From: Ruminiclostridium sp.
GTDB taxonomy: Bacteria; Bacillota; Clostridia; Oscillospirales; Oscillospiraceae
NCBI GenBank assembly: GCA_021442645.1
Contig: JABUSR010000014.1
Coordinates: forward strand, 1-37,254
Direction: 5' to 3'
DNA length: 37,254 bases
The notes under the pieces are model-generated. The model did not search any database and was not told where the DNA came from. It saw nothing but the letters and a program-made list of their open reading frames with translations. This document shows, piece after piece, positions 16,663-29,900 of this stretch. The number at the start of each line of letters is the position of its first letter. Position 1 is the stretch's first letter. The position numbers and the translations under genes are program-made.

Positions 16663-17283
16663 TCAGTGCCCGTCCCGCCAGGCCCGGCGGGATCGCTCAA
16701 TCCCCTCCGACACCTGCTCCCAGGTAAATCCCCGGCGCATCAGTGCGTCGGCGGCCTTCTTTACCTGCTTGCGGTCCTCGGGATCGGTGAGCTTCCGGGC
16801 CAGGAAGGCATCGATGGCCTCCTCCGGTCCGTCCAATGCCGCCAGAGCCTCCTCCCAGTGTTCCCGGGGGACCCTTCGACGGCGGAATTCGGCTTTGATT
16901 TTATAAACGCCCCAGCCCCGTGACTGACCATGCCGGGCCAGAGCCATGGCGTATTCTCTATCGTTGAGCAGACCGACGTCCTCGGCCCAGGCCACAATCT
17001 CCTCCGTCTGAACGGGTTCAGCCCCCCGGGCCGCCAGCTTTTCCGCCAACATCCCGGTGGAAAGGATCCGCCCCGTTAGCAGGGTAATGGCATAATCCCG
17101 CAGAGCAGCAAATCGAACGGCCGTCCGGAGTTCCTTCAGAGTTTCCTCCTCCAGGATCTTTCCGGTACAGAGGGCGAAGTCAGCCGCCACGCCCTCCCCT
17201 ACCTTCAGGGTCTCTCCCCCCTCCAGGTGCAGAGTCCACGGCTTTCCCGGTCGGGCCGGAGGCACCAGGGCCTCAATCTTCAT
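16663..17283 (-). CDS. recX: Regulatory protein RecX
   Basis: Directly follows recA; [24 protein letters not shown] motifs. Confidence 0.85.
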
Positions 17284-18442
17284 CGTCGAAGTCGTCGGCA
17301 CTCACGTCGATGCCCCGGGGGGCAGCGGCAGCAGTTCTGGGCTGAGCGGCGTGGGTAACGGCATTCTCCTGGGGCGCCCGCCCAGCGGCCCGGGCAGCAG
17401 CCTGTCCCTGGGCACTGAGGAGCTTAAAGGCATTCTCCCGGATCTGCTGCTCCACATAGTCGCAGAGGTCCGGGTTGTCTTTCAAGTATTGCTTGGCAGC
17501 ATCACGGCCCTGTCCGATGCGTTCCTCGCCCATGGAAAACCAGGACCCGCTCTTCTGGATGATGTCCAACTTTACAGCCAGGTCGACCATTTCCCCGTAC
17601 TTGGAGATGCCCTCGCCGTACATGATGTCGAACTCGGCCTCCCGGAAGGGAGGTGCAACTTTATTTTTGACCACTTTAGCCCGGGTGCGGTTGCCGATGA
17701 CCTCACCGCCGGCCTTGATGGCCTCTATCCGGCGCACATCAATACGGACGGAGGCGTAGAACTTCAGGGCCCGGCCACCGGTGGTAACCTCGGGATTGCC
17801 GTACATAACACCCACCTTTTCCCGGAGCTGGTTGATAAAGATGACCACGCAGTTTGTCTTGGAGATAGACCCGGCCAGCTTTCGCAGGGCTTGGCTCATG
17901 AGGCGGGCCAGAAGACCCACATGGGAGTCTCCCATGTCACCCTCGATTTCAGCCCGGGGCACCAGGGCAGCCACGGAGTCCACCACAATGACGTCCAAAG
18001 CGCCGGAGCGCACCAAGGCCTCGCAGATCTCCAGGCCCTGCTCGCCGGTGTCGGGCTGAGCGATGAGCATGTTCTCGATGTCCACGCCCAGGGCCCGGGC
18101 ATAGGTGGGATCCAAGGCGTGCTCTGCGTCGATGAAGGCCACCTCGCCGCCCCTCTTCTGGGCCTCTGCAGCAATGTGGAGCGCCAGGGTAGTCTTACCG
18201 GAGGATTCGGGGCCATAAATCTCGATGATCCGTCCCCGGGGGACGCCGCCGATGCCCAGAGCCAGGTCCAATGCCAAAGATCCGGTGGGGATGCCCTCAA
18301 CCATAGCCCTGTTGTTGTCTCCCAGGCGCATGATAGAACCCTTGCCGTAGGTCCGCTCAATCTGGGCCATAGCGGTCTCCAGGGCTTTTTTCTTATCGGA
18401 GGCCGGGGCTGCGGACTCCACTGTCTTCTTCTTTTCTGCCAT
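17273..18442 (-). CDS. recA: Recombinase RecA
   Basis: [34 protein letters not shown]. Confidence 0.99.
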
Positions 18443-18444
18443 AG

Positions 18445-19356
18445 TCAACTCTCCTCCTGCTTTCTCTCGCGGGGTTCGTCGGGGATCTCCCGTTCCATGG
18501 GCTTCCGCCCTTCAACCACCCGGTCGATCCCGCCGGTGTCCCGGGTGATTCGAATCTGTTCAAAGCCGGCCTCCCGGAGCAGCATCCCCACCTTTTTAGA
18601 CTGGTCGATGCCCACCTCATACACCAGGTGTCCGCCGGGCTTTAATGCCGGCATCCAGAGGGTGGTAATGGCCCGGTAGAAGTCCAGGCCGTCCTCCCCA
18701 CCGTCCAGAGCCATAAGGGGCTCATAGTCCTTCACAGAGCTGTCCAGCCCGGGGATATCCCCGGAGGGGATGTAGGGGGGATTACACACCAGCATGTCGA
18801 ACTGCCCCAGGGCATGACTGGGTGCCTGGAGCGCGTCTCCCCTCATGTGGACCACCCGGCCGGTGAGGTTGTGGCGGCGGATGTTCTTCTTACAGAGCTC
18901 CAGCGCCCCGGCAGACAGGTCTACCAGCACCACCCGGGCGTTTTTCAACCGCTGAGCGATGGTGATACCCACGCACCCCGATCCTGCGCAGAGGTCCAGT
19001 ACCCGCAGATTGCCGGTCTCCCGACGGAGGCGGTCTACGGCAATGTTGGCCAGCATCTCGGTGTCAATGCGGGGGATGAGCACGTTTTCGTTCACGTGGA
19101 AATTCAGGCCGCAGAAGGCCCACTCCCCCACGATGTAGGCCACAGGCTCTCCGGCTTCCCGCCGGGCGGCCATGGCCGACGCTGTCTCGATAATCTCATC
19201 GGTGGTGTAGATATTCATATCCTGCAGGAACTTCTCCGGGGTCTTCCCGGAGGCCGCACAGAGGATCTCCCTGGCCTCCAGCCGGGCGGCCTCGATGCCC
19301 ACTGCTGCCAGGCGTTTATTGATGATATAGTATAGATCTAAGTAAGTTACGGCCAC
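18445..19356 (-). CDS. prmC: Release factor glutamine methyltransferase
   Basis: [35 protein letters not shown]. Confidence 0.93.
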
Positions 19357-22667: not shown

Positions 22668-22873
22668 AGGTTGGCTCCTTTCTCCGGGACTGTCCCCATC
22701 CTGCCCACGCCAATTGGAGCAGGGCCTGGTCTTCTCGGTCATCGGTATTTTTTCGTGCGGAGCTCAGGAATCAGCCCCACACGTTCTCATAGTAATACCA
22801 TAATAACATATCATACCACACTCCGGCCGGTTTTCCTATGGTTTCTTTGAAAAAAATTACAAAAGAAAAACAC

Positions 22874-22902
22874 TTGCCATCCATGGCAAGCTGATGTATA
22901 AT
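22874..22902 (+). promoter_or_regulatory. SigA promoter of tRNA-Leu
   Basis: TTGCCA-17 bp-TATAAT. Confidence 0.75.
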
Positions 22903-22922
22903 CGATTTTGCAATTCCCCTTT

Positions 22923-23009
22923 GCCGGTGTGATGAAATTGGTAGACGTAGTGGACTCAAAATCCACCGCTGGCAACAGCGTACCGGTTCGAGTCCGGTCA
23001 CCGGCACCA
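22923..23009 (+). tRNA. tRNA-Leu (CAA)
   Basis: Acceptor GCCGGTG/CACCGGC, anticodon arm GTGGA-CTCAAAA-TCCAC, long variable arm, GGTTCGAGTCC, encoded CCA. Confidence 0.97.
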
Positions 23010-23018
23010 ACTTTACAG

Positions 23019-23056
23019 ACTCCGAACGTATTTTCTGCAAATACGTTCGGAGTTTT
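23019..23056 (+). terminator. Terminator after tRNA-Leu
   Basis: Perfect 15-bp stem ACTCCGAACGTATTT/AAATACGTTCGGAGT plus T-run. Confidence 0.7.
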
Positions 23057-23216: not shown

Positions 23217-23612
23217 TTAAAAATCCACGAGGAATATCCCGATGGAAATCTGTGTGTAGCCCGAATGAGGGGTAACCTTCGTGATGCGGGCGACCAGCAG
23301 CTTACCCGCATCCATGAGGCGGGAAAAAATCAGGTTGTCCTTTTCCGGCACATAGCCCACTTTTCTGCCGTCCTCCGTCAGGACCAGAATGGCATTCCGG
23401 TCGAACTTATTGTCCTCCCGGCGTAGGTTCAGCCTGTCGCCGACTTGGATTTCCTCCAGAACGGTCTTGTCCTTTAGGTACGTCGTCCCGGCGATGTTGG
23501 TATCAAACAGATGGATCTCCTGGGTCAGCGGTTTTATGATGTCTCCGAGATTGGTATTGCTGATGGCAGTAACCAGGTCGTTTCCCCCGGCGACGGTCAG
23601 CTCTCCTGCCAT
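23217..23612 (-). CDS. Stand-alone HIRAN-domain protein
   Basis: IAGTTY...LRREDNKFDRNAILV...KVGYVP matches the HIRAN signature (LxREPxNxyDxnAi...lGYvP); RBS GAGGAG. Confidence 0.85.
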   Translation of the reverse strand: MAGELTVAGGNDLVTAISNTNLGDIIKPLTQEIHLFDTNIAGTTYLKDKTVLEEIQVGDRLNLRREDNKFDRNAILVLTEDGRKVGYVPEKDNLIFSRLMDAGKLLVARITKVTPHSGYTQISIGIFLVDF

Positions 23613-24382
23613 TCGATGATCACTCCTCTCATCAGAAGCTGCTTCAGCGTCTTCTCAAGTTCGTCTGCGTATCGTGCGTAGGACGCATACTCCTCCTCCA
23701 GTGCCCGTTTCTTTTCGGCGACGGCAGCGGCATCCTCAAGCAGGTCCTTATACCGATACGGATCTGTACTGATGATCTTACTAATCTCCTCTTCGAGCTG
23801 TGCGATCCGCTCGTCAAGGTTCTCCAGGACCAGCTCCCCGGGCTCGAAGCCGTGGTCATCCAAGGCCTTGTGGACAAGGACCTCTATGGCGGTGAGCTCC
23901 TCAGCGTCATTGAGCCCGTAGGCGGTGAGCGTCCTGTTCCATAAATCGGCAATTTCCGGATACTCCCAGGCCTTCGGACTGATGTCCGGGTGAATCAGCT
24001 TTGCAATGCGCCGATAGAGGAGCTTACTCCTGATGCAGTCGTATTCGGTGGAAGTCCCGACCTTTTGCGCCTCTCTGTACTCCTCAATCATCTGCGCAAG
24101 CTGTGCATTGTATTCCCGCATAGTCGTTTCGATGTAGTTCTGAAGCTCCGAAGCATTGACCGGCTCCCCGCGGTTCACCGCCGCCTGGCAGAAGGCAATG
24201 CTCTTTTTCCTGGAGATACAGTCGATCTTTTTTTCAAAGACCTTGGTTATGAACTCGCCGAATTCCTTGATATACGCGGTCAGACAACTCCCGGCCTCTT
24301 TCCGCAGGGCGTCCCGTTCCAGGAGCAGCTTCTCGTATTTTTCGTAAACGGACGCCTGGTCGCTTTTCCGGATTTCCCTCAT
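23597..24382 (-). CDS. Coiled-coil protein with a central J-domain-like (HPD) segment
   Basis: LYRRIAKLIHPDI...LWNRTLTAY resembles J-domain helix II-HPD-helix III; flanked by helical, charged regions. Confidence 0.65.
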   Translation of the reverse strand: MREIRKSDQASVYEKYEKLLLERDALRKEAGSCLTAYIKEFGEFITKVFEKKIDCISRKKSIAFCQAAVNRGEPVNASELQNYIETTMREYNAQLAQMIEEYREAQKVGTSTEYDCIRSKLLYRRIAKLIHPDISPKAWEYPEIADLWNRTLTAYGLNDAEELTAIEVLVHKALDDHGFEPGELVLENLDERIAQLEEEISKIISTDPYRYKDLLEDAAAVAEKKRALEEEYASYARYADELEKTLKQLLMRGVIIEWQES

Positions 24383-25260
24383 CTGTGTACCTCAAACATA
24401 TAGAAGTTGTGGCAGATATCCGTCAGGCGGGTCCTGCCTATGGTCGCCTTGCTGAAGAAATCCTCCCGGGTCCGGTACCAGGCATCCTCGAAACAAATCA
24501 CACACCGGCCGTCCTCCTCGAGGGCCTGCACGGTGTAAACCTGTTTCTTATACCGGAAGGACACGGTGCAGGGGCTCTTCAGCAAATGATAAAGGTCGTA
24601 AAAATCAACAGCGGCGTCGTCGAGCTCGACGAGGCGATACAGGTCGTCAATGAGCCACTTCATATTATTCAAATCCCCGAAGAAGGCATTATACCGTAGC
24701 CGCTGTGCAAGGAAATCCTTGGCGGCGTAATAGAGCCGTACCGCCTCGTCCATGCGCCCCTCCTCGGTGTAGATCCTGGCCAGGCGTGTAAAAATCTCCG
24801 GCAGGGGATCATTCAGGTATCTCGCATCCTTTACCCTCGGATAAAGGGACTTTATGATCTCCTTGTATTTCTCATAGTCCCGCTCCACATAATAGCCATT
24901 TTTGTACATGTCGGCGATCTTGTATTCGGACTGGATATTGCCGAGGGCTGCAGACCTGGAAAAGCACGCAAAGGCCTTCTCATCATTCTTCTCGCCGGTC
25001 CTGCCGTAGTACCAGATGTAGCCCAGGCAGTTGTAGGCCTCCTCATAGTCATAGGTGGCAGCCATCTCGTAATACTTCAGCGCAAGGTCGAACTGCTTCA
25101 GCTCGTAATACACGCCGCCCAGATACATCATATCGCGGGGGTCTTTATTGGTTTCGATCAGGAATCCCATGGCCTCTGTAAAGGCAAAGAACTCGTCCTC
25201 CGTGGGGTTATTCTTTCCTGCAAAATCGTTGCGGATGGCTTCCGCCTGTTTCACTGTCAT
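24379..25260 (-). CDS. Sel1-like repeat protein
   Basis: YLGGVYY, AYNCLGYIWYYGRTGEKNDEKAF, YKIADMYKNGYYVERDYEK repeats. Confidence 0.85.
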   Translation of the reverse strand: MTVKQAEAIRNDFAGKNNPTEDEFFAFTEAMGFLIETNKDPRDMMYLGGVYYELKQFDLALKYYEMAATYDYEEAYNCLGYIWYYGRTGEKNDEKAFACFSRSAALGNIQSEYKIADMYKNGYYVERDYEKYKEIIKSLYPRVKDARYLNDPLPEIFTRLARIYTEEGRMDEAVRLYYAAKDFLAQRLRYNAFFGDLNNMKWLIDDLYRLVELDDAAVDFYDLYHLLKSPCTVSFRYKKQVYTVQALEEDGRCVICFEDAWYRTREDFFSKATIGRTRLTDICHNFYMFEVHR

Positions 25261-25296
25261 CGTGCAGCACTCCTTTGAATCACTTTCTACGCTGTC

Positions 25297-25329
25297 AGCT
25301 TACCAAACGATCTGTACCAAAAATGACGC
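25297..25329 (-). promoter_or_regulatory. Putative WYL-activator-dependent internal promoter
   Basis: GCGTCA-TTTTT-GGTACA-N10-TAAGCT with no canonical -35; spacing matches PafBC-type TGTCGG-N10-TAnnnT promoters. Confidence 0.4.
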
Positions 25330-25333
25330 TCGG

Positions 25334-26347
25334 TCATTCTGCCTCAGGCGCTTCCTCCGGCAGGTACTGACGGTACAGCCGCTTTGCCTCCTCCCGGAGC
25401 TGTTCCACAACATCGTGCGGTTCCGTTATTTTTACCCCCTCCCCCAGGGCAAAGATCCAGCCAAAGAACTGCTGGCTGACGGCAACCTCCACAAGGCAGG
25501 AAAAGTGCGCCTCATCCACCGGGCGCAGGGAGATCTCCTTGCCGAACCGGTCAATGATGACCCCGGCCATATCGTTGGCACATTCCAGCCTGACAGTGGT
25601 TCGCTCCCCGCTGAACATACCAAAGAGGCCCTTTGAATACCGCGGCAGATTGAATTCCCGGAAGGCCTTCTTCCCCTGGCGCGGGGCGTCCTCTATTTTG
25701 ATGTTCAGCATCTTATCGACGCGGTAGTGCTTGACCTTCTCATCGGCAGCATCGTAGGCGACCATATAATAATACTCATCGTCCCAGATGAGGCCCCATG
25801 GAGAGAGCACATACCAGGCGCCGTCCCTGCGCAGTTCCATTTTCTTTTTTACGGTCCACTGAAAATAGTGGAAGCGAAGCTGCCGGTTGGAACTGATGGC
25901 CTCGTGAATGGCATCCACATTGTAGTAGACACTCTCGTTCATGGTTTTCACGCGGCCGGATATGACCACCTGGCGTTGGAGATGCCTGGCCTCATATTTG
26001 CTCACCAGCGCCTCCAGCTTCTTTATGAGGTCTCCGGATTTCTTCTCCGTAATGAATTTTGCACTCTGGACAGAGTCCACAAGCAGCTTCAGCTCGGGAA
26101 GCTCAAAGTCCCTGTGCCCAAGGTGGTAGTACACATTTCTGCCGATTTGCTCGCTGAGGATATCCAGGCCAAATGTCCGGAGCTCATCCAAGTCGCGGTA
26201 GAGGGCCTTGCGCTCTGCACTGACGCCGCAAGACGCAAGCCGGTCTATCATATCCTGGACGGTGAGAAAATGCCCGTCGTCAGTTTCCTCCGACAGTATT
26301 TTTACCAGATAGAGCAGCTTCAGCTTCTGGTTTTCACCCTTTGCCAT
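25334..26347 (-). CDS. wHTH-WYL-WCX transcriptional regulator
   Basis: HTH SAERKALYRDLDEL; WYL domain SPWGLIWDDEYYYMVA...HYRVDKM; WCX FFGWIFALG...KITEP. Confidence 0.92.
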   Translation of the reverse strand: MAKGENQKLKLLYLVKILSEETDDGHFLTVQDMIDRLASCGVSAERKALYRDLDELRTFGLDILSEQIGRNVYYHLGHRDFELPELKLLVDSVQSAKFITEKKSGDLIKKLEALVSKYEARHLQRQVVISGRVKTMNESVYYNVDAIHEAISSNRQLRFHYFQWTVKKKMELRRDGAWYVLSPWGLIWDDEYYYMVAYDAADEKVKHYRVDKMLNIKIEDAPRQGKKAFREFNLPRYSKGLFGMFSGERTTVRLECANDMAGVIIDRFGKEISLRPVDEAHFSCLVEVAVSQQFFGWIFALGEGVKITEPHDVVEQLREEAKRLYRQYLPEEAPEAE

Positions 26348-26377
26348 GCTATTCACCCCCTGAGAGAATTCCTCTCT

Positions 26378-26406
26378 ATTGTACCACAGAAGCCGCCGGT
26401 AGTAAA
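26378..26406 (-). promoter_or_regulatory. SigA promoter of the WYL gene
   Basis: TTTACT-17 bp-TACAAT with TGn. Confidence 0.55.
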
Positions 26407-26439
26407 GAACCGAGTCCCAAAACCAAGACTTGTTTTTGA

Positions 26440-26753
26440 CAGACAACCAACTACGGAACCCAAGAATCAGGAACGAGTAAAACCTATAAAGTTGAGTATC
26501 TTGCAAGCGATGGAAAATGGCATGCGTACATTTGCAAGCGCAGCAAAAGTTAGTTCAACATTGTCTGGTGTATCAAACCTTCAGGCGCAAGGAGAAGTAC
26601 ATAAAAAATCTCCAAATGGGTCCGTTTGAGTTTTCTAACGTTAAAATTAAAGAATCAAATAATGTTTGGGGGAACAATGCCGTTTCACCTACGGCAGAAT
26701 CTCCATATTCAGTCTCTGGTTCTGTAACAAGTTATACTGTATCGGGTCCGTGA
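26440..26753 (+). pseudogene. Probable frameshifted, 5'-truncated gene remnant in an AT-rich islet
   Basis: One frame (..FASAAKVSSTLSGVSNLQAQGEVHKK) appears to continue in another (NLQMGPFEFSNVKIKESNNVWG..) across an A6 run near 26603-26608. Confidence 0.4.
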
Positions 26754-26810: not shown

Positions 26811-27581
26811 ATGAACGCTATTAAATGGGGAAAGCCATTCGGAGTAGTTTGCGTATGCTTGGCGGTAATTCTTGTTATTGCCTGCGTACAACCCACTATT
26901 AAAGCATATGCACTTGAACAATCTATAGATGGATATTTGAATGAGCGAAAAATCAACTATAGTTCTGTTGAAATCAACAAAGACACATTAGAAGTCAATC
27001 TGATTTCTTCAGGAAAAGACCGCTGTACAGTAGATGATGTCAACGCTATTCACAGTGTTTATACGGCTGTACATAGTCGTGATGTTGATAGTGCCATAAT
27101 GAATGTTCAAATTAACATTTATAATTCTGATGCTAAACAAATATATAGCTGTTATCAGGCAGACGTTGCAGCGGCAAGCGAATATTCAGGTTTCAAAGAT
27201 AAAATTAACGCGCAGGATAGCAAATCATTTGCCGATGATCCGAAAAGCGCTTTAAGTAATATTATTACTTCTCACTCTTTTTTGGTTGACGATATATCCT
27301 TTGCAAAAGCTGATGGAATATCGGGGCAGTGCGTTAGCATCATGGTTAATCCAGTCCGTATGGATTTAGTATCACTAAGTGATTTGCGCATACTTTATGA
27401 AGCAATTGAAACGTATGCTATCCCATCAAGAGAAATTACGCAATGCTGTCTTAGTATGGTAGATGAAAACGGTGAATGTATGTTTTATTTAACAGGTGAC
27501 TTCAGCTTTGGCAACATAACGGCATGGGTTAGCCCAACGATGGAAGATAGCATCATTGAAAATGAGGGCCCTCAGCACTAA
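26811..27581 (+). CDS. Hypothetical exported/membrane-anchored protein (AT-rich)
   Basis: RBS GAGGAGG; N-terminal hydrophobic segment; codon usage differs from the flanks. Confidence 0.75.
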   Translation: MNAIKWGKPFGVVCVCLAVILVIACVQPTIKAYALEQSIDGYLNERKINYSSVEINKDTLEVNLISSGKDRCTVDDVNAIHSVYTAVHSRDVDSAIMNVQINIYNSDAKQIYSCYQADVAAASEYSGFKDKINAQDSKSFADDPKSALSNIITSHSFLVDDISFAKADGISGQCVSIMVNPVRMDLVSLSDLRILYEAIETYAIPSREITQCCLSMVDENGECMFYLTGDFSFGNITAWVSPTMEDSIIENEGPQH

Positions 27582-27846: not shown

Positions 27847-29115
27847 ATGAAAAAACTCACTGCCGCCCTCCTGGCCTGCGTAATGCTTCTGGGCATGGCC
27901 CCCCTGTCTCTGGCCGCCCCCACCACCCAGGCCATCGTGGACGCCGCCCTGGAGCTGATCTACTCCCACGAGGGCACCTATAATTCCATCAACAAAAACG
28001 ACAACGGCGCCGTGTCCGTGGGCAAGATCCAGTGGCACGGCACCCGCGCCCTGGCCCTGATAAAAATCGTGGTGAACAGCAACCCCACCAACGCCAAATC
28101 CATCCTGGGGGACACCCTCTACACGGAGGTCACCACCGTCGACAACTGGTCCTACCGGACCGTGAACGATGAGGAGGCCGCCGCCCTGGCCACTCTCCTC
28201 TCCACCCCCGAAGGCAAGGCCGCCCAGGACAAGATGGCCAACGGCGACATCACCGGCTACGTCACCCGTGGCCAGAAGCTGGGCATCACTGACGGGGCCG
28301 CCCTAGTCTACTTCGCCGACCTGGAGAACCAAGGGGGATACGGCATGTCCAAGCGGGTGGCCACCGCCGCCGCCAACACTGTGGGCTCCTTCGCCGCCAT
28401 CACCCTGGCCGACATCCACCAGGCTGGGCTGGCAGACTCAGTGGCCGGAAAGTACCCTACCCTCCGGAACCGGGCCTATACCTACTGTCAGAGTCTGGGC
28501 TTCGGCGGCACCGCTGGGGTCCACTTCCCCAAAAAGAGCACCTATCGGAACGGCATGTTCCCTGATGTGGCATCCAGTGCCTGGTACGCCAAATCGGTTG
28601 CCGGCGCCGTGCAGTACGGTCTCATGAAGGGGGACGAACTGGGTGCCTTCCGTCCCAACGGGACCGTGACCCTGGCTGAGGTCATCACCATGGCCGCCCG
28701 GATCCATTCCATCTATACCACCGGCACAGAGAAGTTCGTCCAGACCTCCGGCAAGTGGTACCAGGTCTACCTGGACTATGCCTACAACAAGGGCATCATC
28801 AACAAGGCCCGGTACACCTCCAACGTGACCCTGCCCGCCACCCGAGCCCAATTCGCCGAAATCTTTGCCAAGGCTCTGCCCGCCGCCGGACTGGCCTCCC
28901 GGAACACCGTGAATAACAACGCCATCCCCGACGTGAAGAGTTCCGCCTCCTATGCGGAGGCCGTGTACACGCTGTACCGGGCCGGGGTCCTGACGGGCAC
29001 CGACGCTGCCACCCGGGCCTTCCTGCCCGGCAGCACCATCACCCGGGCTGAGGCCGCCGCCATCGCCTCCCGCATGGCCAACAGCGACGACCGGGTGAGC
29101 TTCACCCTGAAATAA
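27847..29115 (+). CDS. Secreted S-layer homology (SLH) protein with a putative lysozyme-like N-terminal domain
   Basis: Signal peptide MKKLTAALL; HEGTYNSIN-NDNGAVSVGKIQW; SLH repeats FPDV...FRPNGTVTLAE, ATRAQFA, PGSTITRAEAA. Confidence 0.8.
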   Translation: MKKLTAALLACVMLLGMAPLSLAAPTTQAIVDAALELIYSHEGTYNSINKNDNGAVSVGKIQWHGTRALALIKIVVNSNPTNAKSILGDTLYTEVTTVDNWSYRTVNDEEAAALATLLSTPEGKAAQDKMANGDITGYVTRGQKLGITDGAALVYFADLENQGGYGMSKRVATAAANTVGSFAAITLADIHQAGLADSVAGKYPTLRNRAYTYCQSLGFGGTAGVHFPKKSTYRNGMFPDVASSAWYAKSVAGAVQYGLMKGDELGAFRPNGTVTLAEVITMAARIHSIYTTGTEKFVQTSGKWYQVYLDYAYNKGIINKARYTSNVTLPATRAQFAEIFAKALPAAGLASRNTVNNNAIPDVKSSASYAEAVYTLYRAGVLTGTDAATRAFLPGSTITRAEAAAIASRMANSDDRVSFTLK

Positions 29116-29140
29116 CTCTCAGGCAAGGGAGGGCATCCCC

Positions 29141-29644
29141 ATGTATGACGAACTTACCCAGTCGGACATCGACAAAATGAAGGAGGAGCTGGAGCACCGC
29201 CGCCTGGTCCTCCGGCCCCAGCTCATCGAAGAGGTCAAGATAGCCCGTTCCTTCGGCGACCTCAGCGAAAACTTTGAGTACAAGGCCGCCAAACGGGAGA
29301 AAAACCGCAATGACAGCCGCATCCGCTACCTGGAAAACATGATTAAAACCGCCCGGCTCGTCGATGTAGCCCCCACTGGCGCAGGCATTGGCCTCTTTGA
29401 CCGGGTGACCCTCTGGATGGAGGAGGACGAGGAGGACGAGGTCATCCAGCTGGTGACAACCCTCCGGCAGGACGCCCTGAAGGGCCTCATCAGCAAGGAG
29501 TCCCCTGTGGGAAAAGCCCTGTGGGGCCGCAGCGTGGGTGACCGGGTCCTCATCGAGGTCAACGAGGACTACCGCTACTATGCGGAGATTCGTGCCGTTG
29601 AACACACCGGCGAAGACCCCGACGTTCCCATCAGCAGTTTCTGA
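29141..29644 (+). CDS. greA: GreA/GreB family transcription elongation factor
   Basis: ARSFGDLSENFEY and ISKESPVGKAL motifs. Confidence 0.9.
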   Translation: MYDELTQSDIDKMKEELEHRRLVLRPQLIEEVKIARSFGDLSENFEYKAAKREKNRNDSRIRYLENMIKTARLVDVAPTGAGIGLFDRVTLWMEEDEEDEVIQLVTTLRQDALKGLISKESPVGKALWGRSVGDRVLIEVNEDYRYYAEIRAVEHTGEDPDVPISSF

Positions 29645-29656
29645 ACGGAATAAGGC

Positions 29657-29697
29657 AGGACAGCCCGCCCGGAAATAACCCAGGTGGGCTGTCTTTT
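29657..29697 (+). terminator. Intrinsic terminator after greA
   Basis: GACAGCCCGCC/GGTGGGCTGTC stem plus T-run. Confidence 0.75.
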
Positions 29698-29900
29698 CCC
29701 CTGCCTGCAGCTTTTCGTGCAGACAAAAGGGACTTTTCGGCCCTTTCCCCGGGTTCTTTTGCAGGATTTGCCCCGTTCCGGTGAATTTCCTTTCTTCTGC
29801 AAGTTGTTCTGGCAAATCTCTTAAAATCTCCCCGTTTCATCCGGGAGATTCGGCAGATTCCCCATTGATTTCTGCAAGTTTTCTGGTGTATCATTTCATT

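What the first reader, a model, noticed from the sequence alone, without database searches (positions are those of the whole stretch)
23217..26347. WYL regulator + Sel1 + J-domain-like + HIRAN operon beside tRNA-Leu: candidate nucleic-acid-damage or anti-phage system
Seen: four co-oriented genes; the last three overlap (ATGA at 24379-24382; 16-nt overlap at 23597-23612) and sit between a tRNA 3' end and an AT-rich islet. Known: WYL regulators (PafBC, DriD, BrxR, CapW) sense ssDNA/RNA and control repair or defence genes; HIRAN binds free 3' DNA ends; HPD J-domains recruit DnaK; Sel1 repeats are scaffolds. Inference: a module with no recognisable enzyme that senses DNA ends and recruits the Hsp70 machine to them. 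I do not recognise it as a named system.
Basis: partly seen in the sequence, partly recalled or inferred. Interest (0 to 1): 0.8.

Follow-up and report, generated by a model that had tools for sequence, protein, structure and literature searches.

The report
Damage-inducible DnaK-recruiting HIRAN cassette
Three linked genes that travel together among gut bacteria (a repeat scaffold, a co-chaperone with the motif that engages the chaperone DnaK, and a protein from a DNA-end-binding family) sit behind a promoter motif that also precedes recA and restriction genes, so they are likely switched on by a DNA-damage sensor and would bring DnaK to proteins at broken DNA ends.

Summary
Observation confirmed. 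The conserved unit is Sel1/TPR + J-domain + HIRAN. In 85 related loci, HIRAN adjoins J in 79 of 81 and Sel1 in 55 of 83. HPD is nearly invariant. No enzyme or Hsp70 travels with it, so housekeeping DnaK is the likely partner. WYL is adjacent in only 5 of 85 loci.

New: a promoter box (WGTCCGTTTTATGGKACA, 10 nt, TAnnnT, no -35) emerges de novo upstream of the cassette. It scores 12 bits or more in 13 of 70 cassette upstream regions against 5 of 491 other genes. It also follows WYL homologues in cassette-free loci. Elsewhere it precedes recA-recX, lexA, restriction-modification, BREX and Cas12a genes. The window's copy starts 3 nt after the WYL stop and has a degenerate left half. The WYL's closest solved relative is DriD.

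Best reading: a DriD/DdaA-like activator induces a DnaK adaptor that acts at DNA ends. Caveats: the HIRAN pocket lacks two basic residues; defence-neighbour enrichment is modest; function is untested. No PADLOC 2023 system fits, and my paper searches found neither the cassette nor the box.

The parts
25334..26347 (-). WYL-WCX transcription regulator, predicted DriD/DdaA-type activator
   Evidence: Pfam WYL and WCX; all 5 PDB hits are one WYL protein (7U02, 7TZV, 9CU3, 9PFQ, 8TP8; that this is DriD is recalled); subfamily in 66 of 199 random same-class genomes
25297..25330 (-). predicted WYL-box promoter: AGCG-TCATTTTTGG-TACA (25330-25313), 10 nt, extended -10 TG-G-TAAGCT (-10 at 25302-25297); left half degenerate; no -35 hexamer; -10 ends 36 nt before the Sel1 start
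   Evidence: top site of the whole 1.77-Mb genome with a matrix trained on 7 non-cassette sites (14.0 bits, next 13.9); only 6th with a stricter 29-site matrix, 1st on right half plus -10
24379..25260 (-). Sel1/TPR solenoid (about 1-210) plus a small alpha/beta C-terminal domain (about 220-293) of no named family
   Evidence: the C-terminal domain gave only unnamed Atlas leads under 0.9
23597..24382 (-). class-C-like J-domain protein: helix II-HPD(131-133)-helix III-helix IV inserted in long coiled coils
   Evidence: HPD invariant in 54 of 54 aligned homologues, in 84 of 89 locus ORFs; model pLDDT 89; PDB J-domain hits; Atlas cluster 'J domain-containing protein', score 0.98
23217..23612 (-). 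stand-alone HIRAN protein with a 30-residue N-terminal extension
   Evidence: Pfam HIRAN; PDB 3K2Y and HLTF HIRAN alignments; pocket tally
23019..23053 (.). perfect 15-bp hairpin between the tRNA and HIRAN, likely terminator for both converging units (inferred)
   Evidence: I2
22923..23009 (+). tRNA-Leu(CAA); its 3' side carries different cargo in each of 7 congeners

Best explanation
A patchily spread three-gene cassette (Sel1 scaffold, HPD J-domain protein, HIRAN protein) lies behind a promoter box, and it is likely induced by the neighbouring DriD-like WYL activator on DNA damage and would then recruit the host's DnaK to protein complexes at DNA ends. Shown: gene content, overlaps, co-conservation, the HPD motif, the box and the genes it precedes elsewhere. 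From established knowledge: DriD-type WYL proteins bind ssDNA and activate promoters; helix II-HPD-helix III is the interface that stimulates Hsp70. Inferred steps: (1) ssDNA from damage or invading DNA activates the WYL, which binds the box in place of a -35 element; (2) the translationally coupled proteins form a complex; (3) HIRAN localises it to 3' DNA ends; (4) the J-domain loads DnaK on a client chosen by the coiled coil or the Sel1 repeats. The likely client is an end-processing machine such as AddAB, or a protein that blocks it. The output would be remodelling or removal of end-bound proteins, not catalysis by the cassette.
For: Co-conservation: HIRAN next to J in 79 of 81 evaluable loci, Sel1 within two genes in 55 of 83 (85 loci). 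No other gene family follows the cassette: apart from antisense shadow ORFs and generic ABC-ATPases (8 loci), the largest neighbour families were WYL and ADP-ribosylglycohydrolase, 5 loci each. DnaK: no Hsp70 among 224 nearest neighbours; 35 of 47 carrier genomes hold a single Hsp70 locus. Box: de novo EM on 59 cassette upstream regions without an adjacent WYL gave aGgccgtTTTtTnGgACa (log-likelihood 90, against 49-60 in 3 lighter shuffled runs). TAnnnT, which the 18-nt model never included, lies exactly 10 nt downstream in 12 of 28 sites, against 0-4 at other offsets. The cassette-trained matrix finds sites 1-82 nt after the WYL stop in 5 of 27 cassette-free WYL loci. The reverse matrix scores 12 bits or more in 13 of 70 cassette upstream regions against 5 of 491 other genes. 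A strict pattern gives 39 matches in 28 of 301 genomes against 4 for the reversed control; 12 of the 14 matching genomes with handles up to G258 are's WYL list (background 66 of 199). Regulon: recA-recX (L159, L244), lexA as second gene (L199), two lone HIRAN genes, HsdM, C5 methylases, PLD and GmrSD nucleases, BrxA/B, IrrE-type peptidases, Cas12a. The WYL keeps equivalents of DriD Tyr192, Lys202, Arg207 and Tyr240 (alignment; residues from PMC9186387 passages). In one Bacilli order J stands directly before addB in 7 of 9 carriers, 4 of them with HIRAN between.
Against: Only 13 of 70 cassette upstream regions score clearly. The window's own site has a poor left half and ranks 6th genome-wide under the stricter matrix. 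Among 50 carriers, those with a box hold the WYL no more often (5 of 8) than those without (27 of 42) at E <= 1e-40 (genomes incomplete). HIRAN keeps N68 (75 of 81), F/Y/H70 (78), D71 (75) and Y87 (76), but has T/S where HLTF has Arg71 and mostly Glu (56 of 81) where HLTF has Lys113 (HLTF numbering recalled). The addB link is one clade and may be one event; the 3 such genomes tested have no match to this WYL. This genome's recA shows no box upstream, and the genome has a lexA. The seven training sites were picked with a pattern first seen by eye upstream of cassettes, so that test is partly circular; one search is the independent one. No induction or binding data exist.
Confidence: 0.45

Rival explanations
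1. The cassette is an anti-phage system under the same WYL box. It would use DnaK to disassemble or misroute phage proteins, for example end-protecting or replication proteins, and damage induction only primes defence.
For: The box mostly precedes restriction genes: HsdM is first gene in 22 of 80 metagenome loci, though probably redundant copies; also BREX and Cas12a. Near-full-length PADLOC matches among nearest neighbours: 11 of 142 genes (7 of 41 loci) against 1 of 146 control genes from carrier genomes; any hit 15 of 142 against 6 of 146. Patchy: 0 of 36 congeners, 17 of 399 same-class genomes, a tree that mixes families and phyla. Insertion at a variable tRNA site. DdaA precedent (PMC12392091).
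Against: 34 of 41 loci have no defence gene within two genes. No effector domain is present. Neighbours are clustered and kin are not independent. Stable position before addB in one order.
Confidence: 0.27
2. It is an Atc-like chaperone network in which HIRAN has become a protein-binding module. The damage-induced complex uses DnaK to control a host target, such as RNA polymerase or the division machinery, to pause growth.
For: Loss of the two basic pocket residues, and of the first pocket motif in some members, while the non-pocket FxRLMDAGK surface is near invariant. J occurs without HIRAN in 4 of 9 members of the Bacilli order. AtcJ-AtcC-AtcB precedent (PMC6715715 abstract).
Against: The N-x-F/Y-D and G-Y pocket residues stay in 75-78 of 81 members. 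The box also precedes other lone HIRAN genes.
Confidence: 0.18
3. The WYL and the cassette are unrelated neighbours in an insertion hotspot, and the window's 'box' is a decayed or chance sequence.
For: Six of 18 positions differ from the consensus. Rank 6 under the stricter matrix. WYL is adjacent in only 5 of 85 other loci.
Against: About 0.4 copies of this WYL per genome predicts far less than one chance adjacency in 85 loci (my arithmetic). The site starts 3 nt after the WYL stop, as at L129 (1 nt) and L133 (12 nt), with exact -10 spacing. The closest cassette (L003) keeps the right half and spacing in a different locus without an adjacent WYL.
Confidence: 0.1

Closest known systems
DriD (Caulobacter) and DdaA (Moraxellaceae) WYL activators
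   Same: WYL-WCX protein; closest PDB match; ssDNA-contact residues largely kept; one motif before both recA and restriction/CRISPR genes, as reported for DdaA (PMC12392091 passages)
   Different: Different motif (DriD CGAC-N7-GTCG, DdaA CGWCA-N5-TGWCG, per PMC12392091), fixed 10 nt from the -10; Clostridia; controls a chaperone-adaptor cassette not reported in those regulons (0 occurrences of HIRAN or DnaJ in PMC12392091 main text)
BrxR/CapW WYL repressors
   Same: WYL regulator upstream of a candidate defence operon
   Different: BrxR represses through inverted repeats downstream of its own promoter (PMC9122601 passages). No such repeat lies upstream of this WYL, and the box sits upstream of the -10, which is activator geometry (inferred)
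AtcJABC of Shewanella oneidensis
   Same: operon-encoded dedicated J-domain protein that couples partner proteins to DnaK (PMC6715715 abstract)
   Different: AtcJ is a bare J-domain plus 21 residues for cold growth; here a 261-aa coiled-coil J protein with Sel1 and HIRAN behind a damage-type box
HscC-DjlB/DjlC of E. coli
   Same: specialised J proteins, with a UV/Cd2+ phenotype of unknown mechanism (PMC8215388 passages); flanking Sel1 genes ybeQ/ybeT (recalled, from no call)
   Different: has its own Hsp70; none travels with this cassette; no HIRAN
HipA-HIRAN modules (HipL, HipN; PADLOC PDC-M03)
   Same: bacterial HIRAN in a mobile module; the HIRAN hits PDC-M03B at 3e-14 over the HIRAN part only
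   Different: no kinase or HipS domain in the cassette (PMC8262856 passages; one HipA two genes away in L037 only)

Membership tests
J-domain protein (class C) | HPD between helix II and helix III | tested here: met
   definition from PMC10410713 passages
J-domain protein (class C) | complete four-helix J-domain including helix I | tested here: inconclusive
   model shows helices 113-130, 142-156 and 160-176, with a long coiled-coil helix 77-107 where helix I would be; Pfam DnaJ not called on the window protein but on 16 of 104 homologues
J-domain protein (class C) | stimulates Hsp70 ATPase | not testable with these tools
   needs an assay
3'-end-binding HIRAN (HLTF type) | HIRAN domain | tested here: met
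   Pfam 1e-15; 3K2Y 1.6e-10
3'-end-binding HIRAN (HLTF type) | complete 3'-OH pocket | tested here: inconclusive
   N, aromatic, D and Y kept in 75-78 of 81; both basic positions mostly replaced (HLTF roles recalled, source papers not held)
DriD/DdaA/PafBC-type WYL activator | WYL and WCX domains with ssDNA-contact residues | tested here: met
   (the Arg204 position is Lys)
DriD/DdaA/PafBC-type WYL activator | N-terminal HTH | tested here: inconclusive
   no HTH family called on residues 1-140; not modelled
DriD/DdaA/PafBC-type WYL activator | shared motif before recA and defence genes, near the -35 position | tested here: met
   assignment of the motif to this protein is by association
DriD or DdaA orthologue | same recognition motif | tested here: not met
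   motif differs from those quoted in PMC12392091
DriD/DdaA/PafBC-type WYL activator | ssDNA-dependent activation | not testable with these tools
   needs EMSA and a reporter
BrxR/CapW repressor | inverted repeat at the regulator's own promoter | tested here: not met
   no inverted repeat of 12 nt or more in 26347-26520
HscC-DjlB/C type system | dedicated Hsp70 in the locus | tested here: not met
PDC-M03 / HipA-HIRAN | HipA-type kinase partner | tested here: not met
Atc system | homology to AtcA/B/C | not tested
   sequences not fetched

The most novel reading that the evidence does not exclude
A new class of enzyme-free system: damage-induced adaptors that plug the housekeeping Hsp70 motor onto DNA ends, to strip end-blocking proteins (host or phage) and free AddAB. 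They are wired into an undescribed SOS-independent WYL regulon of Clostridia that also turns on recA, restriction-modification, BREX and Cas12a.
Probability: 0.3. Interest if true: 0.88.

Novelty: new variant of a known kind. Interest (0 to 1): 0.7.

Why it matters
It gives two testable things. First, a J-domain co-chaperone tied to a DNA-end-binding family would be a direct link between the Hsp70 machine and DNA break processing or phage defence in bacteria; the UV phenotype of HscC is the nearest precedent and its mechanism is unknown. Second, the box defines a candidate WYL activator regulon in gut Clostridia that couples recA to restriction, BREX and CRISPR genes. It parallels DdaA in a phylum where my searches found no such report, and it can be used to mine further defence genes.

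Tried and rejected
Complex prediction of Sel1 + HIRAN + J, with J as partner: no answer, best score 0.31 against a mark of 0.32; not evidence either way. Fold searches with the J model: Foldseek gave nothing at E <= 0.001; VIA best Z 8.5, generic helical bundles only. Sel1 C-terminal domain: only unnamed Atlas clusters under 0.9; not folded alone. Fusions: single-sequence J-HIRAN (P0253), Sel1-HIRAN (P0251) and HIRAN-Lon (P0252) joins look like deletions or misassemblies and were not used; the longer-J search found none (weak evidence); P0217 (ARH-J) is one representative. Expression: four RNA runs of one study cover genes and intergenic DNA alike as contigs, so transcription is not shown. Viral contigs: 122 pattern hits, none confirmed. 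No integrase or att duplication at the tRNA. Perfect or near-perfect dyad counting did not find the box, because it is only loosely palindromic. PADLOC and NCBIfam gave no system-level match; DefenseFinder and catalogues after 2023 were not available. Paper searches: noise; 5 listed, none on this cassette; 1 unrelated hit; motif string: 0; 0. Subscription papers and supplements were not searched and could hold the cassette or the motif. Two look-ups of earlier findings returned nothing. The tree is the quick one; the careful search did not finish. Dropped before counts: L002 and L090 (duplicates of counted loci), the window itself, and loci too short to evaluate (4 for HIRAN, 2 for Sel1). For the EM, near-duplicates, contig-edge loci and WYL-adjacent loci were also left out. 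The defence comparison used 142 of the 224 neighbours (L003-L047, without L019 and the WYL genes). Gene calls in loci are from my own ORF scorer.
Full report
Observation. Pfam calls WYL, WCX and HIRAN above cut-off and Sel1 just below. The Sel1 model matches solved Sel1-repeat proteins and ends in a small alpha/beta domain with no named family. The third protein has no Pfam hit itself. Its family profile hits solved J-domains over helix II-HPD-helix III, HPD is invariant in 54 of 54 aligned homologues, and the model places this core between long coiled coils. dN/dS against the nearest cassette is 0.05-0.14.

The conserved unit. I gathered 68 loci from a genome scan and 18 from class and relative samples; 85 remain after removing a duplicate. 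HIRAN adjoins J in 79 of 81 evaluable loci; Sel1 is within two genes in 55 of 83; 84 of 89 J ORFs have HPD, and 3 of the 5 exceptions are fragments. No other family follows the cassette. WYL adjoins it in 5 loci and is one gene away in 1. The J family was found in 0 of 36 congeners, 17 of 399 same-class genomes and 9 of 106 genomes of a Bacilli order. Records titled Chloroflexi, Planctomycetes and Elusimicrobia also carry it, and the quick tree mixes host families, which points to horizontal spread (inferred). No viral contig encodes it. In 7 congeners the tRNA's 3' side holds different cargo each time, so the tRNA is an insertion hotspot and the islet (GC3 0.32 against 0.71 for the cassette) is a separate arrival.

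Which Hsp70. No Hsp70 is among the 224 nearest neighbours. 35 of 47 carrier genomes, including this one, have a single Hsp70 locus, in 3 cases split over contig ends. The J protein therefore most likely uses DnaK (inferred).

The promoter box. Reading the upstream regions suggested a motif 10 nt before a -10 box. Unseeded EM on 59 upstream regions without an adjacent WYL returned aGgccgtTTTtTnGgACa. TAnnnT lay at offset 10 in 12 of 28 sites, against 0-4 at other offsets, which argues against terminator tails as the source. That matrix found sites 1-82 nt after the WYL stop in 5 of 27 WYL loci without the cassette, and one at a divergent promoter. A matrix from 7 non-cassette sites scored 12 bits or more in 13 of 70 cassette regions against 5 of 491 other genes, one of which was a training site (partly circular). 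The positive cassettes are spread over the tree. A strict pattern matched 39 times in 28 of 301 genomes against 4 for the control, consensus TGTCCGTTTTATGGGACA-N7-TGN-TATAAT. The -35 position reads GTTTTA, so the geometry is that of an activator site (inferred).

The window's copy. It starts 3 nt after the WYL stop (25330-25297). It ranks first in the genome under one matrix and sixth under the stricter one, first again on right half plus -10. Against: box-positive carriers do not hold the WYL more often than box-negative ones (5 of 8, 27 of 42), although carriers overall do (32 of 50 against 66 of 199; kin not independent).

The regulon. Of 30 genome loci fetched, 28 had a gene call. They include recA-recX, two lone HIRAN genes, HsdM, two C5 methylases, a PLD restriction nuclease, GmrSD, an IrrE-type peptidase, T5orf172, a nucleotidase and this cassette; most others have no Pfam match. 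In 80 listed metagenome loci of at least 120, first genes were HsdM 22, IrrE-type 15, C5 methylase 3, and one each of recA, BrxA, ADP-ribosylglycohydrolase, SNF2/ResIII helicase, PAPS-reductase and exonuclease; lexA was second gene once (redundant copies likely). In L020 one box precedes J-HIRAN-WYL and a second precedes Cas12a. This mix parallels DdaA, which activates both repair and defence genes (PMC12392091, passages). The WYL's only PDB relatives are DriD structures (name recalled), and DriD's ssDNA contacts Tyr192, Lys202, Arg207 and Tyr240 map to Tyr, Lys, Arg and Phe.

DNA ends. HIRAN aligns with the HLTF NxYDxNA and GH motifs. It keeps N68, aromatic 70, D71 and Y87 in 75-78 of 81 members, but the two basic positions are T/S and mostly E (HLTF roles recalled). 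End binding is therefore plausible, possibly weak, and unproven. In the Bacilli order J stands directly before addB in 7 of 9 carriers, with HIRAN between in 4. This is one clade, and the three such genomes tested lack this WYL.

Defence context. Near-full-length PADLOC matches occur in 11 of 142 neighbours (7 of 41 loci) against 1 of 146 control genes; counting any hit, 15 against 6. This is real but modest. The cassette itself matches no PADLOC 2023 system; only the HIRAN part hits PDC-M03B.

Mechanism and verdict. Most likely (0.45), ssDNA activates the WYL, the box turns on the cassette, and the complex brings DnaK to proteins at DNA ends. Rivals are anti-phage action (0.27), an Atc-like network with a HIRAN that no longer binds DNA (0.18), and chance adjacency of the WYL (0.10). 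It works like DriD/DdaA in regulation and like Atc in chaperone wiring, and fails the membership tests for BrxR, HscC-Djl and HipA-HIRAN.

Papers. Passages of PMC9503650, PMC11706625, PMC8215388, PMC12392091, PMC9186387, PMC8262856, PMC10410713 and PMC9122601 were read, the abstract and outline of PMC6715715, and search listings for the rest. No supplements were read. Searches found neither the cassette nor the box.

Noticed in passing
L138-L167, L185-L264: Candidate WYL regulon of Clostridia with box TGTCCGTTTTATGGKACA-N10-TAnnnT before recA-recX, lexA, RM, BREX and IrrE-type genes; many targets have no Pfam match and could be new defence or repair genes.
   Followed up: partly
L143, L146, L147, L149, L150, L156 (first ORF after the box): Small hydrophobic ORFs of 47-81 aa directly behind the box; leads for DidA-like division inhibitors (resemblance only).
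   Followed up: no
L020:3591-5790: J-HIRAN-WYL followed by a second box and a Cas12a gene.
   Followed up: partly
L176-L180, L183, L184: The J gene, with or without HIRAN, heads the addBA operon in 7 of 9 carriers of one Bacilli order.
   Followed up: partly
window 26811-27581 +: AT-rich islet ORF (256 aa, GC 0.38) with a hydrophobic N-terminus and no Pfam, NCBIfam or PADLOC match.
   Followed up: no
window 22742-22923: All 7 congeners examined carry a 440-480 aa lipoprotein-like gene between the response regulator and tRNA-Leu; the window lacks it here.
   Followed up: no
window 17273-18448 -; 29141-29644 +: The genome's recA lies 5 kb from the cassette with no box upstream. The ORF at 29141-29644 reads as GreA (recognised from the sequence); 29102-29815 minus is its shadow.
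   Followed up: partly
P0217; L016, L018, L019, L025, L039, L046, L198: Recurring ADP-ribose-processing neighbours (ADP-ribosylglycohydrolase, Macro, PARG), one hydrolase-J fusion, and one box before a hydrolase gene.
   Followed up: partly
L051, L053: J-HIRAN embedded in arrays of 5-6 longer Sel1-like paralogues; these HIRANs have lost the first pocket motif.
   Followed up: no
L066 and L068: A record titled Parabacteroides distasonis (1.5 Mb) has the same gene order as an Elusimicrobiaceae record and is its sister in the J tree; the title may be wrong.
   Followed up: no
G000:C96:4258-5163 (L175): A second WYL paralogue (33% identical) in the same genome.
   Followed up: partly
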